37,804 nt of DNA from IMG/VR virus record IMGVR_UViG_2565956716_000007; one strand, 5' to 3'. The position numbers and the translations under genes are program-made. Origin of the DNA: a virus (taxonomy: Duplodnaviria > Heunggongvirae > Uroviricota > Caudoviricetes). Positions 698 to 34,330 of the stretch are shown in pieces. A model generated the notes under the pieces. The model ran no database searches and had not been told where the DNA came from. It was given only the letters and a program-made list of their open reading frames with translations. Numbering within the stretch: the first letter of the stretch is position 1; each line of letters starts with the position of its first letter.

Positions 698-1060
698 GGG
701 GCTGATTCTGGATTCGACGGGATTTGCGAAACCCAAGGTGCATGCCGAGGGGCGGTTGGCCTCGTAAAAAGCCGCAAAAAATAGTCGCAAACGACGAAAA
801 CTACGCTTTAGCAGCTTAATAACCTGCTTAGAGCCCTCTCTCCCTAGCCTCCGCTCTTAGGACGGGGATCAAGAGAGGTCAAAGCCAAAAGAGATCGCGT
901 GGAAGCCCTGCCTGGGGTTGAAGCGTTAAAACTTAATCAGGCTAGTTTGTTAGTGGCGTGTCCGTCCGCAGCTGGCAAGCGAATGTAAAGACTGACTAAG
1001 CATGTAGTACCGAGGATGTAGGAATTTCGGACGCGGGTTCAACTCCCGCCAGCTCCACCA
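698..1060 (+). ncRNA. ssrA: transfer-messenger RNA (tmRNA, SsrA)
   Basis: Starts GGGGCTGATTCTGGATTCGACGGG and ends with the tRNA-like acceptor/T-arm ...GGTTCAACTCCCGCCAGCTCCACCA; 363 nt, matching the E. coli ssrA layout. Confidence 0.95.
1016..1060 (+). repeat. 45-bp att core (ssrA 3' end), left copy
   Basis: ATGTAGGAATTTCGGACGCGGGTTCAACTCCCGCCAGCTCCACCA recurs identically at 34159..34203. Confidence 0.75.
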
Positions 1061-1070
1061 AATAAATCAA

Positions 1071-1103
1071 GGGGTTACGTGAAAGCGTAGCCCCTTTTTC
1101 TTT
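1071..1103 (+). terminator. rho-independent terminator downstream of ssrA
   Basis: GGGGTTACG-tgaaag-CGTAGCCCC stem-loop followed by TTTTTCTTT. Confidence 0.6.
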
Positions 1104-1183
1104 AGTAGTGGCGGCAAAATGGCGACAGACTTTTGCGTCCATCTTGCCTGTCGCCATCTTGAAATCATGCAAAGAGGTTTCAC

Positions 1184-1666
1184 ATGGAAGAACTTCACTT
1201 TGTTTACATCAATGCAAATGGTCGTATCGGTGTTCACTCTATACAGAGCATCAGTTATAGCGAAAATCATATACAGGGCATTTGTAAGAACACCGATCGA
1301 ATAAAAACCTTCCGAAAAGACCGCATTCTTAAACAGTACGATTCACCAGAACAAGCCATTCAGGAGTGCGCGTCATTCCTCCCCGAAAACTACTCACATC
1401 TCACCAAGCAGTCTGGTCCGAAAAAAAATACATTCGATGTGTGTTTCACCGGATTTAAGAAAGCAGATAAAGAAAGATTGGTTGATAAGGCGAATGAACA
1501 AGGATTAACGGTAAGAACCTCTGTAACCCAAAGCCTTCAGATGCTCTGTTGCGGTTACAATGCAGGCCCATCAAAAGTATCGGCAGCCAGGATGAAAGGC
1601 ACAATCATCATAGATGAGCCTGGCTTTATACATTTTCTTGAAACGGGTGAGATCCCAGATGAATAA
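1184..1666 (+). CDS. hypothetical protein with C-terminal BRCT-like domain (prophage cargo between att and ogr)
   Basis: 160-aa ORF with AGAGG RBS about 8 nt upstream; C-terminal ~75 aa (FDVCFTGF...GLTV...GPSKVSAARMKGTIIIDEPGFIHFL) follows the BRCT pattern seen in the LigA C-terminus; lower G+C than flanks by eye. Confidence 0.6.
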   Translation: MEELHFVYINANGRIGVHSIQSISYSENHIQGICKNTDRIKTFRKDRILKQYDSPEQAIQECASFLPENYSHLTKQSGPKKNTFDVCFTGFKKADKERLVDKANEQGLTVRTSVTQSLQMLCCGYNAGPSKVSAARMKGTIIIDEPGFIHFLETGEIPDE

Positions 1667-1667
1667 A

Positions 1668-1694
1668 AACCTGCCGTAGCAGGTTCTCTTTCTC
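1668..1694 (+). terminator. hairpin terminator between the BRCT-like ORF and ogr (probably bidirectional)
   Basis: Perfect 7-bp inverted repeat AACCTGC-cgta-GCAGGTT followed by CTCTTTCTC; A-run on the other side. Confidence 0.45.
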
Positions 1695-1911
1695 AAAAAT
1701 TCATATGCCCCTGACCACCTGGCAATGGATGTGGAGGAGCAGTAGCAATCAGTGCGGGTGTCACAATAAACCGGACCACTGTTTCATGGGTAACAAAAGT
1801 ACTCCCGCAGTTAATATTTTGGCACTGGCAGTAACGCTCTTTGGTGCTTTCAGTTACTTGAAAACTGCTCCTTGTGTGTGCCGCATGACCACACTTTGGA
1901 CAATTCATCAT
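1693..1911 (-). CDS. ogr: Ogr/Delta-family zinc-finger late-gene activator
   Basis: 72 aa from the internal Met (MMNCPKCGHAAH...CQCQNINC), the Cys4 signature and length of P2 Ogr; adjacent to gene D as in P2. Confidence 0.85.
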   Translation of the reverse strand: MMNCPKCGHAAHTRSSFQVTESTKERYCQCQNINCGSTFVTHETVVRFIVTPALIATAPPHPLPGGQGHMNF

Positions 1912-1979
1912 ATCCAGATCCCTACCTTTGCTATCAGAATCATTGTAATGATACACAAAATATCAATATTGAGAACACT

Positions 1980-3080: not shown

Positions 3081-3562
3081 GACAGCAGCCCTCCCACCGT
3101 TTTACTGATATCGCTTAAGGCAGACGTTGCCGTGTCCTGCAGATTATTCAGTTGAGTACTGAGATCACCGAACATATCGGACAGGGATTCATCCACCCGT
3201 TTTAGCGAAAGGGTGAACTCAATCCTGCGCGGCATACCGTCGCGGAAAAACTCCGTTTTAGTCTGATTCAGTCCCTCAATCACATACATGCCGTAAATCG
3301 TGCCGCTGCCTTCAATCAGGGGCCATGCTTTCCCCTGTTCTGCCATCTGCTCCAGTGCCAGCAACGACAGCCTGCCGCCTGTTATCTCCGGCATAAGAAC
3401 ACCGGAAAGCGTCAGCATGTCGTTTTCCGGTCCCAGAAACTGCGTGGACGGACGACGGTTTACCCGGCTGTTTGCCGCATGTCGCCAGCTGCGTTGATAC
3501 TGCAGTTCCTGATACGGAACGGTGCGCAGCATAAACACGTACAATCCCAGCACCATCATCAT
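3077..3562 (-). CDS. U: tail protein gpU
   Basis: 161-aa ORF with P2 U-like size and position, translationally coupled to T and D. Confidence 0.75.
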   Translation of the reverse strand: MMMVLGLYVFMLRTVPYQELQYQRSWRHAANSRVNRRPSTQFLGPENDMLTLSGVLMPEITGGRLSLLALEQMAEQGKAWPLIEGSGTIYGMYVIEGLNQTKTEFFRDGMPRRIEFTLSLKRVDESLSDMFGDLSTQLNNLQDTATSALSDISKTVGGLLS

Positions 3563-6500
3563 GCGTCGTATCCCCCCTGATCGCTGTAGTTACTCCTGGC
3601 TTTTGCCTTCAGCCTGCGTTCACGTTCATCAAGCTGGCGTGCCACCTCCCGCGCAATATCCTGCGCACTTTGTCCTGGCTGCGTCTGAATGATGATCTGC
3701 GTCGGTGCCTCAATCCGTTGAACGAGCGGCACAGTGGCTGCGCGACTCACAATTGCTTCTCCACCTTTCGCGGGAAGTGCCAAAGGGTGCAACGGTGGAA
3801 GCTCTGCTGGCGCGGCAGCAACGCCCATCATTCCGGCAACAACGGCAGCCAGTGCAGCTGTATTTCTCCGGCTGGTCACATTTGCCGGGCCGTTAACAAT
3901 TTCCGGCCCGTTTTCACCGACGATGCCAAACTGCCCACGCGGGATATAGCCGCCGCTGTCATACATCCCCGCAAAGCCATATCCCCATGACGGAAAACCA
4001 CCCGATGGCATCATCACTTTACCGTCTGCATTCACCGTCGCAGGTTGCTGACGCGTCACGCTTTCCGGCAGTTTCGCCTTTGCAGCCTCTTTACTGACAA
4101 TGCCGAGTTTATCCAGCAACCAGGAAACGCCAGATTTCAGGGAGTCCAGCGGATGCATAACCATATTCAGCCCTTCCGCCAGTGCCTCCCCGAATCGTCG
4201 CCCCATTGCCGCTGCGCTCTGCAGTTCGGCAGAGGTCGACTTAACGGGCGTCAGCAGATCAGTAAACCAGCCCCACAGCGCCTGCACTTTGTCACCAATC
4301 CACTGGAACACAGGCTTAAGCGGTTCGAACGCTGCACTGATGGGACCTGCCGCCGCTTTGAATCCTTCCACCACGCCACCGAGAAATGCGGTGATGGGTT
4401 GCCAGTATTTCCAGACAACCAGTGCCACACCCGCCAGTGCAGTAACCACAAGACCTATCGGACTGAGCAAAGCACCTAACAGACCAGATACGGCATACAG
4501 GGCAACGCGCAACATCGCCAGTGGACCAGATGCCAGTACTCGCAGCACCGTGCCTGCGGCAGCCAGCCCGCCGCGCAGTACCGCCAGAGGATTCATAAAC
4601 ATCACAGCAACAGCACGTAAAGCGGATAATCCAGACCGCAATAGTGCAACCGGCGCACCTGCTACAGTTTTCAGGACATTTCCCGTCAGTGATGCCGTAC
4701 GGCGCAAAGACGACAACGGCGCAGTAAGTAAACCCGCTGCGTTACCCGATGAAGCAAGCCCGCGTCGCAGCACTGCCAGTGGAGCGCCAGCCAGCCAGGA
4801 CAACGCGCTGCTAGTTCGTGTTACTGCTGCCATAACGGAAGGTAACGTTTTGATGCCCAGCACAGAGAATCCCAGACGGATGACTGCCAGCGGCCCCAGC
4901 ACTGCAGCCAGCGCCACAGCCAGGGTGCCGAGGCCTACGGTAACCGCAGCCACAATAGCGGCTACTTTCATCAGTGTGCCCGTCAGTTCCGGGTTAGCTT
5001 CCACCCAGCGACGCAACGCTCCCGTAACGCTTTTCACCGTGTACAGAATATCCATCAGCGGCTGGCGCAGCGTTTCGCCCAGGCTGCTGAAGGTATTCTG
5101 CGCTCCGGTTTTAACCAGCAACCACTGAGCAGAAAGTGAGTCCTTGTTGATGTCGGATTCTTTCTGCATGGAACCGAGCGCATCATTGCCCGCTGTCAGT
5201 TTTAGCTGGCGCTGTAGTTCCGGCAGGTTGTTTGCCAGTTTCGCCGCGTCATCGCCAAACTCTTTACCAAACAACATGGTCATGGCAGACAGACGCTTGT
5301 CCTGCGGCAGTGCGTTCACCTTCTCCAGCACACGCTGGATAGTTCCCATCGCATCCTTCGTCATCTGCTTTTCAATCACTTCAGGATTGAGTTTCAGCAG
5401 ATTCATCCCTTCAAAGAAACTCTTGCTTTGCATGGTGGCAATGGACAATTCACGCACCATCGCGTTGGCAGCACTGGCAGCGACCTCCGGCGCAGCCCCC
5501 AGTGTCAGGAAGGTGGAACCCAGCGCCGCCGCTTTACGATAATCCAGACGATCAGCCACACCGCCCAGGCGTTGCATGACATCAATGATGTCTGCCCCTT
5601 TCGACATAGCGTTATCATCCAGATAGTTCAGCGCATCACCGAGCTGTTCAATATTGCGGGTTGGTATTTTGTAGAGCTGGGCGATTTTCCCCAGACTTTC
5701 TGACAGTTCATCCGCTGGCAGCTCAAAGGCTGTTGCCGCCTTTGCTGCCGTACTGGCGAAGGCCAGCAGGTCACGTTTCTGGTCCTCCCAGCTGCCGTCA
5801 GGGTTTGCCACATTCATGCGCGCACCACCTTCAACCAGTGCGGCGAAGTCCACAGCACCGTTTTCCATTGGCAGCTGTTCACTGGCAGCTTTGATGGCAT
5901 CCTGCATTTCGTAAAAACGCGCAGTGCGGTTGCCATTATCGTCACGCAGACCATTGACCTGCTTTGCCACACCTTTCATGGCATCTTCCATGCTGGTATA
6001 GCTTTTTACCGCCGCCATCACTGGCGCGCCCATTGCCAGCCCTGCAGCCGTGGTGGTGGCTCCGGCTCCTGCGATGCGATCGCGCACTTCAAGCCGTCTT
6101 GAGTATTGTTCTCTGGCAGCGTTCATCCGTGCCTGTTGTTCACCCAGACGTTTAAGTGCTTTTTGCTGGCCCTCCAGTGCCTGACGAGTTTCTTCGGCAT
6201 TTTTCTTAAGTTCTCGCTGGGCACTACTGAGTTGTCTGGTATCAATCCCTGATTCTTTAAGTGCCTGACGTTGTCTCTGGACCGCCCCCAACAAGCCGTT
6301 ATAGGTCTGCTGAAGTTCCTGTACTCGTGTTTTGGCCTGACTGAATAACTTTGCCTGCGCGGCGGTTGGCCTGTTAGTGGCAGCAAATTGTGTGGCGAGT
6401 TTTGCCGCCTCTTCGCGGGCTGCGTTCAGGTTGTTGGCTGTTATGGCTAGTTGCGAGCGCGTCTTGCGAAATTCATCAATTCTGCCAGCCTGCTTATTCA

Positions 6501-23496: not shown

Positions 23497-24738
23497 CTAT
23501 AAATCTTCTTGTGTAGGAAGTGTCGAGATATCACCTCCATAATTTATTTCAATCTCTGGAAATCGTTCTCGCCACTGTTCAAAAGTTTTTGGAATAGTTT
23601 TTTTCCATTTATGTACATTTGTGAAATAACGAATTTCACCATCATTGAGATAAATAGCCCATATCTCGCCATCTCTACCAAACATCACCATACCTTCCGC
23701 AATGGTATAAAGTCCTCTAACTCCTCCCTGATAAGCCTTTGCGACAAAAGTATCAAGATTATCGTGCTCACCTATTTGCTCCATCACTTTTTTCAGTTCA
23801 AAGTAATATTGCCCCATAACGTTGTATAATCTCTGAAGTTCCATTTCATTTGCAAAACCAAATAAAAACAAATGATCCTCTGCACAACGAAACTCACCAT
23901 CAAAAAAGGCCCCCATACCTCGCCAGTATTGACAACTAACGGTCTCACTTATCCTAATATATCGTTTACCATCAAATATGCTGCGCCTAAAACTCAACTC
24001 GCCAAATTCATTACTTCCAGGTATTTTTATTCTAGCGTAAGCTGAATCTCTAGCTACAAAAACCGCCTCTCCTGTAATACTCCCAGAATGTGATCCATTC
24101 ATAACTACTAAATCAAAAAGAAAACCATTTGACGATGTTTCACGAATAAATAATTTGCCAAAATTACTTCTGCGATTGTCCTTGTACCACTCCCCCCACC
24201 ATATTGGTGCATTTAAACCTGAAGAAATAGCTCCTTGGCTTGAATCACTCAAGGACTCCCTTAATGCAGTTTCAAGTCGCCCTTGCAGTAAGCTTCTTAC
24301 CTCAGGTTTTGAATCACTATCAGGGTCCATAGTATATGCAATTACCCTCCGTCCTCTTAAGTCAAAAGGAAGTTCTTCTGGAGAACCATAAAATGTATTC
24401 TGGACCATGATTACTCTATCCCAGCCTAGCTGGGATACTGCATATCCTAATTCAATCAAAACATTTGGATTAGGTGTCTTCTTATCCTCAGACCTTCCAT
24501 TTATGATAGAAACATCGGCAACAAAAACATCTGAAAGTGATATTTTATTAAAAATGCTTTCGCTAATTGATGGTGAGCCATTTAAACCATTAGTATCACG
24601 ATCCAAGACTGGCTCCAATGTTTCTGTTTCATCCTTTTTTATTGCTTTTAGAGATCTAACCAAAGCATCTTGAATTAAATTTCTATTACATTTTCCATTT
24701 AAATCAGATTGCCAAGAGTAAAAAACTATTCTTTGCAT
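23497..24738 (-). CDS. hypothetical protein, N-terminal TIR-like domain with uncharacterised C-terminal domain (candidate defence cargo)
   Basis: 413-aa ORF with GAGGAG RBS 8 nt upstream; N-terminus RIVFYSWQSD...DVFVADVS...NPNVLIELGYA...LPFDLRGRRVIAY fits the TIR-like pattern; AT-rich relative to flanking genes. Confidence 0.7.
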   Translation of the reverse strand: MQRIVFYSWQSDLNGKCNRNLIQDALVRSLKAIKKDETETLEPVLDRDTNGLNGSPSISESIFNKISLSDVFVADVSIINGRSEDKKTPNPNVLIELGYAVSQLGWDRVIMVQNTFYGSPEELPFDLRGRRVIAYTMDPDSDSKPEVRSLLQGRLETALRESLSDSSQGAISSGLNAPIWWGEWYKDNRRSNFGKLFIRETSSNGFLFDLVVMNGSHSGSITGEAVFVARDSAYARIKIPGSNEFGELSFRRSIFDGKRYIRISETVSCQYWRGMGAFFDGEFRCAEDHLFLFGFANEMELQRLYNVMGQYYFELKKVMEQIGEHDNLDTFVAKAYQGGVRGLYTIAEGMVMFGRDGEIWAIYLNDGEIRYFTNVHKWKKTIPKTFEQWRERFPEIEINYGGDISTLPTQEDL

Positions 24739-25043: not shown

Positions 25044-25277
25044 CTAATGCAGCCAGCTGTCGTCTTCCCACACCTTCTGCATAATTTTCATCACTTGTTT
25101 TCTTTCTTCGTCCAGTTGCAGTCCGGTTAGTTCCACACCGTTAGAGCTACCTTTGCGAATGCGAATTACCGTTTTGGGATACAGGGGGCGCAGATTGCGG
25201 TAAAGCTCGGATTCAAGGGCGTCCAGGGTAGACTGGCTAATCTTCTGCTCTTTATCGATCATTATTTCAATGCGCAT
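25044..25277 (-). CDS. DinI-like protein (SOS-module component)
   Basis: MRIEIMIDKEQKISQSTLDALESELYRNL...KVWEDDSW follows the DinI pattern; GAGGTGA RBS upstream. Confidence 0.7.
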   Translation of the reverse strand: MRIEIMIDKEQKISQSTLDALESELYRNLRPLYPKTVIRIRKGSSNGVELTGLQLDEERKQVMKIMQKVWEDDSWLH

Positions 25278-25287
25278 AAAAGTCACC

Positions 25288-25476
25288 TCAGCTGATGACA
25301 TCCATTGAGCGGTTGTATTCGTGGGTTCTGATTTTTGCCATGAGTTCATCAGTCAATTCAGAAACCCACTGCAGAGCCAGCCCCTTCTCTTCATCACTAC
25401 ACTCACTAGCCGCTACAAGCTTAAGAAAAAAATCAATGCGCTGGAGCTTCAAAGACTCCAAAAAATAGTCCTGCAT
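25288..25476 (-). CDS. small protein, first gene of the LexA-boxed operon (tum-like N-terminal part?)
   Basis: 62 aa from MQDYFLESL with GGAGG RBS; ends 11 nt before the DinI-like start in another frame. Confidence 0.45.
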   Translation of the reverse strand: MQDYFLESLKLQRIDFFLKLVAASECSDEEKGLALQWVSELTDELMAKIRTHEYNRSMDVIS

Positions 25477-30845: not shown

Positions 30846-31478
30846 ATGATACAAGTAAAAGCTGGCGAGAATACAGGGGGAAGAGAGGCTATCCATAGGC
30901 TAATGGCAGCCTATGATTTCAAGTCCAGACAGCAACTTTGCGATCACTTGGGCGCATCAAAAAGCACTATGGCAAACAGATACTTAAGAGATAGTTTTCC
31001 TGCAGAATGGGTGATTCAGTGCGCTTTGGAAACAGGAGTTTCTTTACTGTGGCTAACTACCGGACAGGGCGATCCAGGTTCAAACATTGACCCTAAAAAA
31101 AATATCAATTCCGTGAACTCTAGCAAAGTTAAACCTCTTTCGGAGCTTGTATCTCCTGAAATTGACAAGGCAACTCTCAACGGAGGTTTGCTGATCGATG
31201 CTGGAAAAGCAATCATTGATAGCAGCATACTCCCCTCAGACTCAAGCAACCTGCTGCTGGTGACTACTTCTGGTGATTCTTATTTAATAGATCGCAACCA
31301 AACACCACCAGTAAATGGTACGTGGTTAGTGGACATCGACGGGATAAAAAGCATTGTAAAATTGACACGACTCCCGGGAAACAGATTAGTAGTGCATCAG
31401 GATGATTCATCGTTTGAGTGCGAACTGGATGACATTGAGGTAATAGGCCGCGCACTGAAAATCATTAAGAGCCTTTGA
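30846..31478 (+). CDS. cI: CI-like immunity repressor
   Basis: 210-aa ORF divergent from apl and followed by int (186 layout); true start may be an internal Met. Confidence 0.7.
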   Translation: MIQVKAGENTGGREAIHRLMAAYDFKSRQQLCDHLGASKSTMANRYLRDSFPAEWVIQCALETGVSLLWLTTGQGDPGSNIDPKKNINSVNSSKVKPLSELVSPEIDKATLNGGLLIDAGKAIIDSSILPSDSSNLLLVTTSGDSYLIDRNQTPPVNGTWLVDIDGIKSIVKLTRLPGNRLVVHQDDSSFECELDDIEVIGRALKIIKSL

Positions 31479-31479
31479 T

Positions 31480-32493
31480 ATGACCATCAGAAAACAGCCG
31501 AACGGAAAGTGGTTATGTGAATGCTACCCAAACGGGCGAGATGGCAAACGCGTACGCAAACAATTTGCGACGAAAGGCGAAGCCATTGCGTTTGAGAATT
31601 TCACCATGGACGAGGTAAACAAGAAACCTTGGCTGGGAGAAAAGGAAGATCGGCGACACCTATCAGAATTAATTGAGCTGTGGTATTCCCTGTATGGTCA
31701 AACACTCGCAGACCCCAAGCGACTCATGGCGAAACTTGGAATTATCTGTAATGGTCTGGGCGATCCCATCGCTTCAGAGCTGACTGCCGGTGACTTTACG
31801 AAATACCGCGAAGCACGGCTAAAAGGTGAAGTGCGAAATGAAGATGGCACGCTGATGTCGCCCGTTAAGCCCCGCACGGTAAACCTTGAACAGCGCAATC
31901 TATCATCTGTGTTCGGTACATTAAAAAAACTAGGACACTGGTCAGCACCAAACCCGCTGGCAGGACTTCCGACCTTCAAAATTGCCGAAGGTGAGCTGGC
32001 TTTTCTTTCCACGGACGAAATCAAGCGCCTGTTGGCGGCATGTGCTGAATCTCAAAGCCCTAGCTTACTAATGATTGCAAAAATATGCCTGGCTACTGGC
32101 GCACGGTGGAGTGAAGCCGAAAATCTGCAGGGCCATCAAATATCGAAATACCGAATTACTTATACAAAAACAAAAGGCAAGAAAAACCGTACTGTGCCGA
32201 TATCTCAGGATCTGTATGATGAACTCCCCAAAAACAGAGGAAAGTTATTCACGCCATGCAGAAAAGCCTTTGAGCGGGCAGTAAAGCGGGCCGGTATTGA
32301 CCTACCGGAGGGCCAATGCACCCACGTGCTTCGCCATACATTCGCCAGTCACTTTATGATGAACGGCGGAAACATACTGGTACTGCGTGATATTTTGGGT
32401 CATGCCGATATAAAAATGACCATGATTTACGCCCACTTTTCGCCCGATCACCTTGAAGACGCGGTGACTAAAAATCCTCTTTATAATTTGTAG
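31480..32493 (+). CDS. int: tyrosine integrase (P2/186 Int family)
   Basis: 337-aa ORF with C-terminal catalytic region HVLRHTFASHF...LGHADIKMTMIYAH. Confidence 0.9.
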   Translation: MTIRKQPNGKWLCECYPNGRDGKRVRKQFATKGEAIAFENFTMDEVNKKPWLGEKEDRRHLSELIELWYSLYGQTLADPKRLMAKLGIICNGLGDPIASELTAGDFTKYREARLKGEVRNEDGTLMSPVKPRTVNLEQRNLSSVFGTLKKLGHWSAPNPLAGLPTFKIAEGELAFLSTDEIKRLLAACAESQSPSLLMIAKICLATGARWSEAENLQGHQISKYRITYTKTKGKKNRTVPISQDLYDELPKNRGKLFTPCRKAFERAVKRAGIDLPEGQCTHVLRHTFASHFMMNGGNILVLRDILGHADIKMTMIYAHFSPDHLEDAVTKNPLYNL

Positions 32494-32505: not shown

Positions 32506-34026
32506 GTGATTCAAAAATTAGATATTCAATCTGATGCGGTTGCAAAGTTAAGAATGGATGCTATTCGTTCAGAAATCCAAGGTTATTCCCCTGATTTATT
32601 TATCGAATTCTGTATGCAATATAACTTACAAAAATTTGAAGATAATATCCACATGTTACGACACATGCCTTGGATTGTTAATTTATGTCTAAAGTGGTCT
32701 GCGTCAGTAACTGGCAAGAATAAAAAATTCAAAATCCTCGATAAAAATCAAGCAATAAAACTCTTCCAAAAAACTTATGAAACCTTGAACATTATTCCTA
32801 TCGGTCTTGAGAGGAAGAATGGCATGCATTTCTTCATTAGAAATAATCTATACCAACAAGGAATCTACCAGAAAATTGACGCTCTAAACACAATTAGCAG
32901 ACAAGTCTTTCTATTTTCAGAACTTGAAAAAAACCATAAAATAAAGACAAGTTTTTTTACTATCACGAATGTATCTATCGAAGACTTTCTTAAGCTATCT
33001 TACATATTAATAACTCACATAACAGAAGAGCATCCCGTGAGAAAAATGAATGTAGATACATTTACTATATTATTTGACATCATTCCTAGAAATACCATTG
33101 AGAAATTTCTTGATGCAATATCAATAAATTACAATGAACTATCTACATTTTGCAAATCAAAAACCTATGATAAACCTTTGCTTGAATACTACTCATCATC
33201 ACCTTTCCTTGAAAAACCATTAATAAAAAAAGGTTCAGAGTATTTTCAGATACACACACAACTGACTTCAACAAGCATACAGACGTTCATATATGATCTT
33301 TTAAGAAGAACTGATGCCGAGAAGTTCATGGATAGCTTTGGAAATGTATTTGAAAATGCACTGGAATTAATACTAAAAGAAAGCGAAATTGATTTTCATA
33401 ACGAAAAATACCTTAAAGAACGACTACCTAAAGATAATAAAGTAGTTGATTATTTCATTCCACATACTGAGGCAAATATTTTCATTGATGCTAAAGGCGT
33501 TGAGATACACCAAAAAGGCATGGTAACATTACGCCCTGAGGATATTGCAGGAAAAATAAAGAAATCGGTATTAAAAGCAATCGAACAATCTCACGAAGTT
33601 AATCGAGAAATATACTCTAATGAGCGAATAATAGCTCCATTCAGGGCTAACTCATATATCATTTGCATTACATATAAAAACCTTTTCTTAGGCAATGGTA
33701 GTATCCTAGCTAATACTTATGCTAAAGATGAGATGAATAAGATATATGACAAGTTTAAACATAACTATCATATCCCTACAGAGAATATTTTTTGTCTATC
33801 ATTTGAAGAGTTTGAATATCTCATTGCATCATGCAAAAGGTTTAAAATTCCGCCTCATGAAGTCTTGCAATCTGCAGTTGAAAAGAACAAAAAACCATCA
33901 AGTGCTGCTTTCCTATTTTCCCACCATATAGAAGACTATTTTGATAGAGTAGTCAATTCAGTCATAGTCAATGAGGCAGGCATTAAAATGGTAGATTCTA
34001 TTATCAATAAATTAAAGCCTGAATAA
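32506..34026 (+). CDS. hypothetical protein with PD-(D/E)xK-like nuclease motif (AT-rich cargo between int and att)
   Basis: 506-aa ORF with GTG start and GGAG 7 nt upstream; strongly AT-rich; FENALELIL...VVDYFIP...IFIDAKG resembles E / D / D-x-K nuclease motifs. Confidence 0.7.
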   Translation: MIQKLDIQSDAVAKLRMDAIRSEIQGYSPDLFIEFCMQYNLQKFEDNIHMLRHMPWIVNLCLKWSASVTGKNKKFKILDKNQAIKLFQKTYETLNIIPIGLERKNGMHFFIRNNLYQQGIYQKIDALNTISRQVFLFSELEKNHKIKTSFFTITNVSIEDFLKLSYILITHITEEHPVRKMNVDTFTILFDIIPRNTIEKFLDAISINYNELSTFCKSKTYDKPLLEYYSSSPFLEKPLIKKGSEYFQIHTQLTSTSIQTFIYDLLRRTDAEKFMDSFGNVFENALELILKESEIDFHNEKYLKERLPKDNKVVDYFIPHTEANIFIDAKGVEIHQKGMVTLRPEDIAGKIKKSVLKAIEQSHEVNREIYSNERIIAPFRANSYIICITYKNLFLGNGSILANTYAKDEMNKIYDKFKHNYHIPTENIFCLSFEEFEYLIASCKRFKIPPHEVLQSAVEKNKKPSSAAFLFSHHIEDYFDRVVNSVIVNEAGIKMVDSIINKLKPE

Positions 34027-34158
34027 GTCTCCCAAGCAAAACCAGTGGCGGCATTTTGGCGGCAGAGCATTAAAAATGCGTAAAACAGACAAACACAAAA
34101 TAATACTAACATACTGATTTTAAACATAAGTTCATGTTTTTGTTATAGTAAAAATGGT

Positions 34159-34203
34159 ATGTAGGAATTTCGGACGCGGGTTCAACTCCCGCCAGCTCCA
34201 CCA
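34159..34203 (+). repeat. 45-bp att core (ssrA 3' end), right copy
   Basis: Exact copy of 1016..1060; flanks diverge immediately on both sides. Confidence 0.75.
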
Positions 34204-34330
34204 ATCATGATTGGACGGTATAAGGACAACACCAATAAAAACAGGAAGTTAGCAGTCTCAGCAGGACACCGACCAGACGGTGAAGAGACATAAAAGGATA
34301 CGCAAAGGAGCCGCGGCTCCTGGTGACATG

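What the first reader, a model, noticed from the sequence alone, without database searches (positions are those of the whole stretch)
1184..1666. BRCT-like domain protein encoded as a moron between the left att and ogr
Seen: a 160-aa ORF with a good RBS, a perfect inverted repeat (ATGGCGACAG...CTGTCGCCAT, about 1117..1162) in its upstream region and a hairpin terminator shared with ogr. The C-terminal half follows the BRCT pattern (hydrophobic strand FDVCFTGF, Gly-rich turn, GPSKVSAARMKG, IIIDE, FxxFL). BRCT modules bind nicked DNA or phosphorylated partners, so a phage-borne one could act as an anti-defence factor or a modulator of host repair or ligase.
Basis: partly seen in the sequence, partly recalled or inferred. 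Interest (0 to 1): 0.55.

Follow-up and report, generated by a model that had tools for sequence, protein, structure and literature searches.

The report
Prophage WYL–BRCT sensor-like protein
The ORF is a real, conserved 160-residue prophage protein in which a ligand-sensing WYL domain is joined to a BRCT domain; in related phages the same gene sits right behind the repressor gene, so it is probably made in lysogens, but its function has never been tested.

Summary
Window 1184-1666 (+) is a genuine 160-aa gene lying between the ssrA attL core (1016-1061) and ogr. It has a Shine-Dalgarno sequence, an inverted repeat upstream, and a hairpin shared with ogr.

The upstream "inverted repeat" is built from the motif TGGCGRCA. 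This motif also forms 11-bp-spaced direct pairs in both att arms, so it most likely marks integrase arm sites rather than an operator for this gene.

The gene is accessory:
- Its GC is about 0.43, against 0.55-0.58 for the tail genes.
- It is present in about 170 of 5,426 complete E. coli genomes.
- It is absent from other E. coli P2-like prophages.

The family is nevertheless large. In P2-like phages of many genera the gene lies directly downstream of cI. Outside prophages it lies beside restriction and Abi genes or integron integrases.

Best reading: a lysogen-expressed protein without an enzymatic domain that binds ssDNA or DNA ends and acts in exclusion or defence. That function is inferred, not shown. 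No experimental literature was found. Interest is moderate.

The parts
1016..1061 (+). att core at attL: a 46-bp block at the 3' end of ssrA, identical to 34159-34204
   Evidence: Alignment of both prophage ends; sequences read; tmRNA at 698-1060.
1069..1096 (+). Phage-supplied intrinsic terminator hairpin for ssrA (12-bp stem followed by TTTTTCTTT). It stands between ssrA (or, in the circular phage, the int operon) and the WYL-BRCT gene.
1107..1129 (+). P' arm module AGTGGCGGCAAAATGGCGACAGA: two direct TGGCGRCA copies (1109-1116 and 1120-1127) 11 bp apart. Putative integrase arm-type sites.
   Evidence: The pair is conserved upstream of 59-75%-identical homologues.
1148..1161 (-). Third, inverted copy of the motif (TGGCGACA at 1149-1156 on the - strand), which is the right arm of the inverted repeat. 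It is specific to the E. coli lineage.
   Evidence: It is not conserved in relatives.
1172..1176 (+). Shine-Dalgarno sequence AGAGG, 7 nt upstream of the ATG
   Evidence: Sequence read.
1184..1666 (+). WYL-BRCT protein gene (160 aa, 18 kDa, pI about 7)
1190..1339 (+). WYL domain (aa 3-52, a five-stranded Sm-like barrel), followed by two helices (aa 55-73). Conserved residues are Y8, T42, F43, R44, D46 and R47.
1436..1645 (+). BRCT domain (aa 85-154) with invariant F88-T89-G90-F91 and K131
1668..1685 (.). Hairpin between the converging WYL-BRCT and ogr genes, a likely bidirectional terminator
1693..1956 (-). ogr/Delta late-gene activator (RefSeq start gives 1693-1911)
   Evidence: Pfam Ogr_Delta, E = 1.5e-20; annotation.
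30846..31478 (+). 186-type CI repressor, the first gene of the lysogenic operon. It is on the same strand as the WYL-BRCT gene in the circular phage map.
   Evidence: Pfam Phage_CI_repr plus Phage_CI_C.
31480..32493 (+). Tyrosine integrase
   Evidence: ORF. It was used as a phmmer seed and recovers integrases. RefSeq annotates a 'site-specific integrase' immediately after cI in a closely related prophage.
34044..34066 (+). P arm module AGTGGCGGCATTTTGGCGGCAGA: two direct TGGCGGCA copies 11 bp apart, 19 of 23 positions identical to the P' arm module
34159..34204 (+). att core at attR (the displaced 3' end of ssrA)

Best explanation
The gene encodes a small two-domain protein with no enzymatic domain. 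An N-terminal WYL domain is the ligand sensor that binds single-stranded DNA in PafBC, DriD and CapW. A roughly 30-residue helical linker joins it to a C-terminal BRCT domain of the LigA/RFC1 type. That domain keeps the Thr-Gly...Lys triad which phosphate-recognising BRCT domains use.

It is an accessory gene of P2-like (Peduoviridae) temperate phages and belongs to the lysogenic side of the genome. In most lineages it directly follows cI. In this ssrA-integrating E. coli lineage it lies just across attP from cI-int, on the same strand.

My committed reading is as follows. The prophage makes the protein in the lysogen. There it recognises abnormal DNA, meaning single-stranded stretches next to a 5'-phosphate end, nick or gap. 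Such DNA is presented by incoming or replicating foreign DNA. By binding it, or by recruiting or blocking a host factor through the BRCT domain, the protein interferes with a superinfecting element. This would be an exclusion or defence function.

Shown: gene reality, both folds, the conserved ligand-pocket residues, and the genomic associations. Inferred: expression in the lysogen, DNA as the ligand, and the defence role.

Layered confidence:
- WYL+BRCT architecture: 0.95
- lysogeny-associated accessory gene: 0.75
- binds ssDNA or a 5'-phosphate DNA structure: 0.5
- exclusion or defence role: 0.35
For: Architecture:
- The full-length AF2 model has pLDDT 91.3.
- The family profile hits RFC1 BRCT at 4e-5 and LigA BRCT at 1e-4. 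T89-G90 aligns to the yeast Rfc1 Thr-Gly. K131 falls in the GPKK segment that holds Lys-208, which lines the 5'-end cavity (PMC9293004).
- Pfam WYL scores above the gathering cut-off in relatives P0150 and P0162, and 4 of 29 family members hit it.
- The PafB arginines R211 and R214 are essential for ssDNA binding (PMC11804915). They align to R44 and R47.

Purifying selection: dN is 0.17-0.33 while dS is saturated.

Lysogeny link:
- The gene starts 3-26 bp after cI in Mannheimia PHL101, Vibrio PV94 and a Yersinia ruckeri prophage.
- In Serratia the order is C, one gene, WYL-BRCT, int.
- In a scan of one genome per species, 11 of 51 loci have a cI/C gene ending within 135 bp upstream on the same strand, and 18 have one within 1.5 kb.
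- All 28 phage records that carry the gene are from hosts of P2-like temperate phages.

Accessory and defence-like context:
- GC is 0.43 against 0.55-0.58.
- The gene is in about 170 of 5,426 E. coli genomes, while about 1,300 carry a similar gpD.
- Non-prophage copies lie next to GmrSD_N+HNH, AbiGi+AbiTii, MrcB_N+HNH and integron-type integrases.
- Some relatives are fused to membrane anchors.
Against: - There is no experimental datum for any member. Literature searches found only a 2014 mention of WYL-BRCT fusions.
- No PADLOC model covers the protein. Only the BRCT region matches candidate PDC-S48.
- The protein has no recognisable effector.
- Neither domain is strongly basic. The median net charge of the BRCT domain is about 0, and the whole protein has pI 7. 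This is unlike typical non-specific DNA binders and leaves a protein or small phospho-ligand as an alternative BRCT partner.
- The CapW arginines that flank the WYL motif are not conserved here (NHIQG instead of RWHVR).
- In this window the gene is separated from cI-int by attP and a strong terminator, and no sigma-70 promoter was detected upstream. Its expression state in the E. coli lysogen is therefore unknown.
- The defence-neighbourhood evidence rests on a handful of loci.
Confidence: 0.4

Rival explanations
1. DNA-damage or induction sensor for the prophage. The WYL domain detects ssDNA produced by damage, as in PafBC, DriD and CapW. The BRCT domain passes the signal on by protein contact, for example to CI, to the DinI/Tum-type module, or to a host repair or replication protein. 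This would tune induction or help the lysogen survive damage.
For: - All structurally characterised ssDNA-binding WYL proteins are damage or infection sensors.
- The gene is tightly linked to cI genes of several repressor types.
- The near-neutral charge of the BRCT domain fits a protein-interaction role.
Against: - The gene is found with unrelated repressor families: 186-type CI, S24-type and P2 C-type. It also occurs outside prophages beside restriction and Abi genes and in integron contexts. This argues against a partner specific to one repressor.
- The protein has no DNA-binding output domain.
Confidence: 0.2
2. One reading: an anti-defence factor, or a modulator of host ligase or repair, that benefits the phage during lytic growth. 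It could act, for example, as a decoy of the LigA BRCT domain or as a shield for nicks and ends.
For: The BRCT domain is closest to the LigA and RFC1 BRCT domains. Its similarity to LigA models extends about 40 residues upstream of the BRCT domain.
Against: - In most lineages the gene is placed and oriented in the position of the second gene of the cI operon, not among early lytic genes.
- Chromosomal copies sit in defence-type neighbourhoods and integron cassettes.
- No match to any known anti-defence family was seen in Pfam, PHROGs or NCBIfam.
Confidence: 0.1
3. Accessory factor for site-specific recombination. The gene hugs attP and int, so the protein might bind att DNA or recombination intermediates and bias integration or excision.
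For: - In this window the gene is immediately next to the P' arm sites.
- In Serratia and Yersinia proxima it directly precedes int. In Vibrio-type loci int follows within about 1 kb.
Against: - In Mannheimia-type phages it lies between cI and the tail genes with no int nearby.
- It occurs in non-phage contexts.
- Tyrosine recombinases leave 5'-OH ends, not the 5'-phosphate ends that BRCT pockets recognise (established knowledge).
Confidence: 0.05
4. A functionless remnant of a captured NAD-dependent ligase C-terminus.
For: PHROGs and some GenBank records label the family 'DNA ligase'.
Against: - The protein has a constant length of about 160 aa and invariant motifs. Synonymous sites are saturated while nonsynonymous change is low.
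- There are 201 cluster representatives at E < 1e-30.
- The N-terminal half is a WYL domain, which LigA lacks.
Confidence: 0.02

Closest known systems
wHTH-WYL-WCX regulators (CapW, BrxR, DriD, PafBC)
   Different: This protein has no winged-helix DNA-binding domain and no WCX domain, and carries a BRCT domain instead. The arginines that flank the WYL motif in CapW (RWHVR) are absent. It therefore cannot act as a transcription factor in the same way.
BRCT domains of bacterial NAD-dependent ligase LigA and eukaryotic RFC1
   Same: Same fold and best sequence similarity. The Thr-Gly after strand 1 and the Lys at the start of helix 2 are conserved.
   Different: There is no adenylation, OB, Zn or HhH domain and no AAA+ module. 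The domain is near-neutral rather than basic. DNA binding has not been tested.
PHROG phrog_2561 ('DNA ligase')
   Same: This is the same family: a full-length match with E = 2.2e-77.
   Different: The name is misleading. The proteins are 160 aa long and match only the last ~100 positions of LigA models.
Passenger genes of phage repressor operons (lambda rexAB behind cI; K139 glo) - comparison from general knowledge
   Same: They share the genomic logic: a non-essential gene co-oriented with the immunity repressor and directly behind it, made in the lysogen (positions shown).
   Different: There is no sequence or fold relationship, and co-transcription with cI was not measured. In this window the gene has moved to the other side of attP.
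PADLOC candidate PDC-S48
   Same: Its C-terminal ~70 residues match the BRCT domain (E = 1.8e-7).
   Different: PDC-S48 is a 411-aa protein. The match does not cover the WYL domain or the rest of the model.

Membership tests
BRCT domain (Pfam PF00533) | Sequence match to the family model at or above the curated cut-off | tested here: inconclusive
   The window protein scores 19.5 bits against a cut-off of 21.3 (E = 0.0011). 22 of 29 family members hit BRCT, best E = 2.1e-6. The family profile hits RFC1 at 4e-5 and LigA at 1e-4.
BRCT domain (Pfam PF00533) | Beta-alpha-beta-beta-alpha-beta-alpha fold | tested here: met
Phosphate-recognising BRCT (RFC1/LigA/BRCA1 type) | Thr/Ser-Gly after strand 1 plus Lys in helix 2 forming the phosphate pocket | tested here: met
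   T89, G90 and K131 are invariant in 29 sequences. They align to the yeast Rfc1 Thr-Gly and to the GPKK segment. The roles of these residues in RFC1 and BRCA1 are taken from the literature and from memory, not tested here.
WYL domain (Pfam PF13280) | Sequence match to the family model | tested here: inconclusive
   The window protein itself has no hit. 4 of 29 relatives hit, best E = 1.5e-5. The homologous segments of P0150 (28.5 bits) and P0162 (25.1 bits) exceed the 21.8-bit cut-off.
WYL domain (Pfam PF13280) | Five-stranded Sm/SH3-like barrel with a conserved basic ligand groove | tested here: met
wHTH-WYL-WCX transcription factors | N-terminal winged helix-turn-helix and C-terminal WCX domain | tested here: not met
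   The protein starts with WYL strand 1 at residue 3 and ends with the BRCT domain. No HTH or WCX hit or fold was found.
NAD-dependent DNA ligase (database label) | Adenylation domain with the KxDG motif, OB fold, Zn finger and HhH | tested here: not met
   The protein is 160 aa long. Matches cover only about the last 100 positions of LigA models, at scores far below the cut-offs (19.6 against 444 bits).
Moron (autonomous accessory gene in a prophage) | Absent from closely related phages, with atypical base composition | tested here: met
   GC is 0.43 against 0.55-0.58. Homology to about 1,140 other E. coli prophages stops at the end of gpD, and the two examples inspected have ogr directly next to host DNA.
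Moron (autonomous accessory gene in a prophage) | Own promoter and terminator | tested here: inconclusive
   A terminator hairpin is present. No sigma-70-like promoter was found on the + strand between 1097 and 1183, and none is conserved in relatives.
Known anti-phage defence systems (PADLOC-DB 2.0) | Full-length match to a system component | tested here: not met
   Only partial matches to the BRCT region were found: PDC-S48 at 1.8e-7 and SspE at 0.0013.

The most novel reading that the evidence does not exclude
WYL-BRCT proteins would be a previously unrecognised, widespread class of single-protein prophage immunity factors that lack an enzymatic domain. They would be made from the repressor operon. 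They would read out foreign or damaged DNA by binding ssDNA through the WYL domain and an adjacent 5'-phosphate end or nick through the BRCT domain. They would then block the invader directly, for example by preventing end joining or circularisation, or by hijacking a host BRCT partner such as the ligase or clamp machinery. In some lineages an uncharacterised ~200-aa partner domain (GYAAGW...ALDIK...WTQG) would serve as the effector.
Probability: 0.25. Interest if true: 0.7.

Novelty: new variant of a known kind. Interest (0 to 1): 0.45.

Why it matters
WYL domains are currently understood as ssDNA-sensing switches of transcription factors that control DNA-damage responses and defence systems. 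Here the same sensor is joined only to a BRCT domain, in a small protein that temperate P2-like phages of many genera keep next to their repressor gene. Working out what it does would show how a WYL signal can be used without a DNA-binding output domain. It would also assign a function to a recurrent passenger gene of the P2-like immunity region and correct the widespread 'DNA ligase' or 'exonuclease' labels. If the protein proves to be a defence or exclusion factor, it would add a very compact system and an uncharacterised partner domain to the catalogue.

Tried and rejected
1. Inverted repeat as an operator or RNA element for this gene. Rejected as the primary reading. The motif recurs as 11-bp-spaced direct pairs in both att arms, and only the direct pair is conserved in relatives.

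2. Sigma-70 promoter upstream. None was found by the scan or by eye in relatives. Read-through from ssrA remains a speculation, because a strong terminator intervenes.

3. Functional partner in the window.
- The 506-aa ORF across attP (32506-34026) shows no similarity to the domain fused to WYL-BRCT elsewhere. It has no Pfam, PADLOC or PDB match.
- An HMM of the fused or adjacent partner domain finds nothing in the window.

4. Identity of that partner domain. It has no Pfam, PADLOC or PDB hit, and every homologue is labelled 'hypothetical'.

5. The roughly 790 E. coli genomes that match only the first 63 bases of the query. These are an att-like relic near ypjA, not prophages lacking the gene.

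6. dN/dS. Only a bound could be given, because synonymous sites are saturated.

7. Literature. Searches for BRCT with WYL, prophage, anti-phage, P2-like or lysogen gave nothing functional. The two P2-hotspot papers do not mention this gene or the ogr-att junction.

8. Basic-surface argument for DNA binding. Not supported, because the domains are near-neutral.

Full report
**What is in the window**

The window starts with smpB (1-483) and ssrA (tmRNA, 698-1060). It then carries a complete P2/186-like prophage of the Peduoviridae, closest to Escherichia phage 500465-1, genus Wadgaonvirus.

The two prophage ends share a 46-bp core, 1016-1061 and 34159-34204. The intact 3' end of ssrA and everything to its right is therefore phage DNA.

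The target ORF (1184-1666, +) is the first phage gene after attL. It converges on ogr (1693-1956, -; Pfam Ogr_Delta, E = 1.5e-20). ogr is followed by gpD and the tail genes.

**Check of the observation**

- The ORF is 160 aa. AGAGG lies 7 nt before the ATG.
- The inverted repeat has arms 1115-1128 and 1148-1161, 13 of 14 complementary, with a perfect 10-nt core.
- A hairpin at 1668-1685 sits between the two converging genes.

The ORF is a real gene.
- It is identical to RefSeq WP_000391794.1.
- It has 122 word-index homologues, mostly 157-162 aa long.
- The start codon is conserved.
- Against 59-77%-identical relatives, nonsynonymous divergence is 0.17-0.33 while synonymous sites are saturated.

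**The protein**

An AlphaFold2 model built on 29 homologues is confident (mean pLDDT 91.3). It shows two domains joined by a helical segment and a lower-confidence linker.

*C-terminal domain: BRCT.*
- By sequence, the query alone is just under the Pfam BRCT cut-off (19.5 against 21.3 bits).
- 22 of 29 relatives hit BRCT.
- The family profile finds RFC1 at 4e-5 and LigA BRCT at 1e-4.
- The invariant residues F88-T89-G90-F91 and K131 align with the Thr-Gly of yeast Rfc1 and with its GPKK segment. The Lys-208 of that segment lines the cavity for the recessed 5' end (PMC9293004).
- From general knowledge, Thr/Ser-Gly plus Lys is the phosphate pocket of phosphate-recognising BRCT domains.

- Residues 3-52 form a five-stranded barrel.
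- Pfam WYL is hit by 4 of 29 relatives. It is above the gathering score in the homologous segment of P0150 and P0162.
- The conserved strand K41-T42-F43-R44-K45-D46-R47-I48 aligns with M. smegmatis PafB R208-T-F-R211-L-S-R214-I (this alignment is weak on its own, E = 2.8).
- R211 and R214 are the arginines whose mutation abolishes ssDNA binding (PMC11804915).

*Caveats.*
- The arginines that flank the WYL motif in CapW (RWHVR; PMC11662680) are not present here (NHIQG).
- Both domains are near-neutral.
- The ligand should therefore be regarded as probably, not certainly, nucleic acid.

*What the protein is not.*
- It has no HTH and no WCX domain, so it is not a CapW/BrxR/DriD-type regulator.
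- It is not a ligase or an exonuclease, despite the labels in PHROGs and some phage records.

**The upstream inverted repeat**

The repeat is made of the octamer TGGCGRCA.
- Copies lie at 1109-1116 and 1120-1127 (direct, 11 bp apart) and at 1149-1156 (inverted).
- The same direct pair, with the same spacing, lies in the other att arm at 34046-34053 and 34057-34064.
- The two 23-bp modules are identical at 19 of 23 positions.
- The window holds 14 copies against 4.3 expected, and 0 of 100 shuffles reach that number.
- In homologues of 59-75% protein identity from other enterobacteria, the direct pair GTGGCGGCAAAATGGCGRCAG is conserved next to the ssrA terminator. The inverted third copy is not.

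Paired direct repeats in both arms are the classic layout of arm-type integrase sites in P2-like attP (general knowledge). I therefore read the repeat as part of attP. Integrase binding there could incidentally affect the neighbouring gene, but that is speculation.

No sigma-70-like promoter is detected between the ssrA terminator (1069-1096) and the ATG, and none is evident in relatives. How the gene is transcribed in this lineage remains open.

**Distribution and context**

*Within E. coli.*
- The full locus is in about 170 of 5,426 complete genomes, always at ssrA.
- About 1,300 genomes carry P2-like prophages whose gpD is 90-97% identical. In the roughly 1,140 of these that lack the gene, homology stops exactly at the end of gpD. 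In the two examples inspected, ogr abuts host DNA directly.
- The gene and ogr have GC 0.42-0.44, against 0.55-0.58 for the tail genes.
- The gene is therefore accessory and tied to the ssrA-targeting end module.

*Across bacteria.* The family is large. A profile search of 1.84 billion representatives gave 201 hits below 1e-30 and 885 below 1e-10.

*Position relative to cI.*
- In Mannheimia phage PHL101 the gene starts 3 bp after the cI-like repressor gene.
- In Vibrio phage PV94 it starts 26 bp after the repressor and lies upstream of int.
- In Yersinia ruckeri prophages it starts 8 bp after a 186-type cI.
- In Serratia the order is C, one gene, WYL-BRCT, int.
- A scan of one genome per species gave 51 loci. 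Of these, 6 repeat the att-ogr-gpD layout of this window. In 11, a cI/C homologue ends within 135 bp upstream on the same strand, and in 18 within 1.5 kb. The repressors belong to at least three families.

In the circular map of the present phage the order is cI, int, a variable cargo gene, attP, WYL-BRCT, all on one strand. The gene thus sits on the same lysogenic side of the genome, displaced across attP.

*Outside recognisable prophages.* The gene lies next to GmrSD_N+HNH, AbiGi and AbiTii, MrcB_N+HNH, or integron-type integrases.

*Fusions.* Some relatives are fused to membrane anchors. Others are fused to an uncharacterised ~200-aa domain that can also be a separate adjacent gene.

**Interpretation**

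*Shown.*
- This is a conserved WYL+BRCT protein.
- Key residues of both ligand pockets are conserved.
- The gene is a recurrent neighbour of the repressor gene in P2-like temperate phages, and of defence-type genes elsewhere.

*Inferred.*
- The protein is made in the lysogen.
- It binds ssDNA and/or a 5'-phosphate DNA end, nick or gap.
- It protects the lysogen against incoming DNA.

The last step is the weakest (about 0.35). It rests on guilt by association and on the precedent of passenger genes of repressor operons such as lambda rexAB (general knowledge).

The main rival reading is that the protein is a damage or induction sensor for the prophage itself.

**Known versus new**

- WYL-BRCT fusions were listed in a 2014 domain survey (PMC4012209).
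- RefSeq already names the protein 'BRCT domain-containing'.
- No functional study was found.
- The two systematic studies of P2 defence hotspots do not mention this gene or the ogr-att junction.

I therefore class it as a new variant of a known kind: a WYL sensor without the usual transcription-factor output. It sits in a prophage position that suggests a lysogen function. Interest is moderate until a phenotype is shown.

Noticed in passing
window 32506-34026 (+): A 506-aa ORF lies between int and the attR core. It has no Pfam, PADLOC or PDB match. A near-identical prophage in NZ_CP104112 carries an unrelated 343-aa hypothetical gene in the same slot. This is therefore a variable cargo site, and the int-att interval is reported as a minor P2 defence hotspot (PMC13586616).
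   Followed up: partly
window 23497-24738 (-): A 413-aa ORF lies in the classical P2 hotspot between the portal gene gpQ and the replication gene gpA. It matches the CAP12/Pycsar-effector TIR domain just above the Pfam cut-off (26.6 against 24.7 bits) and is a likely defence cargo. The related prophage in NZ_CP104112 has a DUF6236 gene there instead.
   Followed up: partly
L105 5502-6098; also fused in P0122, P0124, P0128, P0148, P0174, P0177 and P0183: An uncharacterised ~200-aa domain with the motifs GYAAGW...ALDIK...WTQG is fused to either end of WYL-BRCT proteins, or is encoded as the next gene. It has no Pfam, PADLOC or PDB match and all homologues are 'hypothetical'. It is absent from the window. 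It is a candidate functional partner or effector.
   Followed up: partly
window 1107-1129 and 34044-34066: The 23-bp modules AGTGGCGGCA(A/T)nTGGCGRCAGA in both att arms are probable integrase arm-type sites of this ssrA-targeting phage group. The P' arm copy is conserved across enterobacterial relatives.
   Followed up: yes
window 1060-1122 versus about 790 E. coli genomes (for example L006-L008, position ~3501-3563): The phage-supplied ssrA terminator and the first arm-site copy (63 bp) also occur as an isolated relic near ypjA, beside a recombinase pseudogene, in many E. coli genomes that lack the prophage. It looks like a scar of an earlier ssrA-integrated element.
   Followed up: partly
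window 25044-25349 (-): A DinI-family gene (Pfam E = 1.3e-22) lies downstream of the replication gene. This is the position where 186-like phages keep their SOS-controlled module (the comparison is from general knowledge).
   Followed up: no
L111 5601-6206: In a gammaproteobacterial MAG, the WYL-BRCT gene is followed by a second gene that has only a WYL-like N-terminus (PADLOC WYL and RTasWYL hits). This suggests paired WYL proteins in some loci.
   Followed up: no
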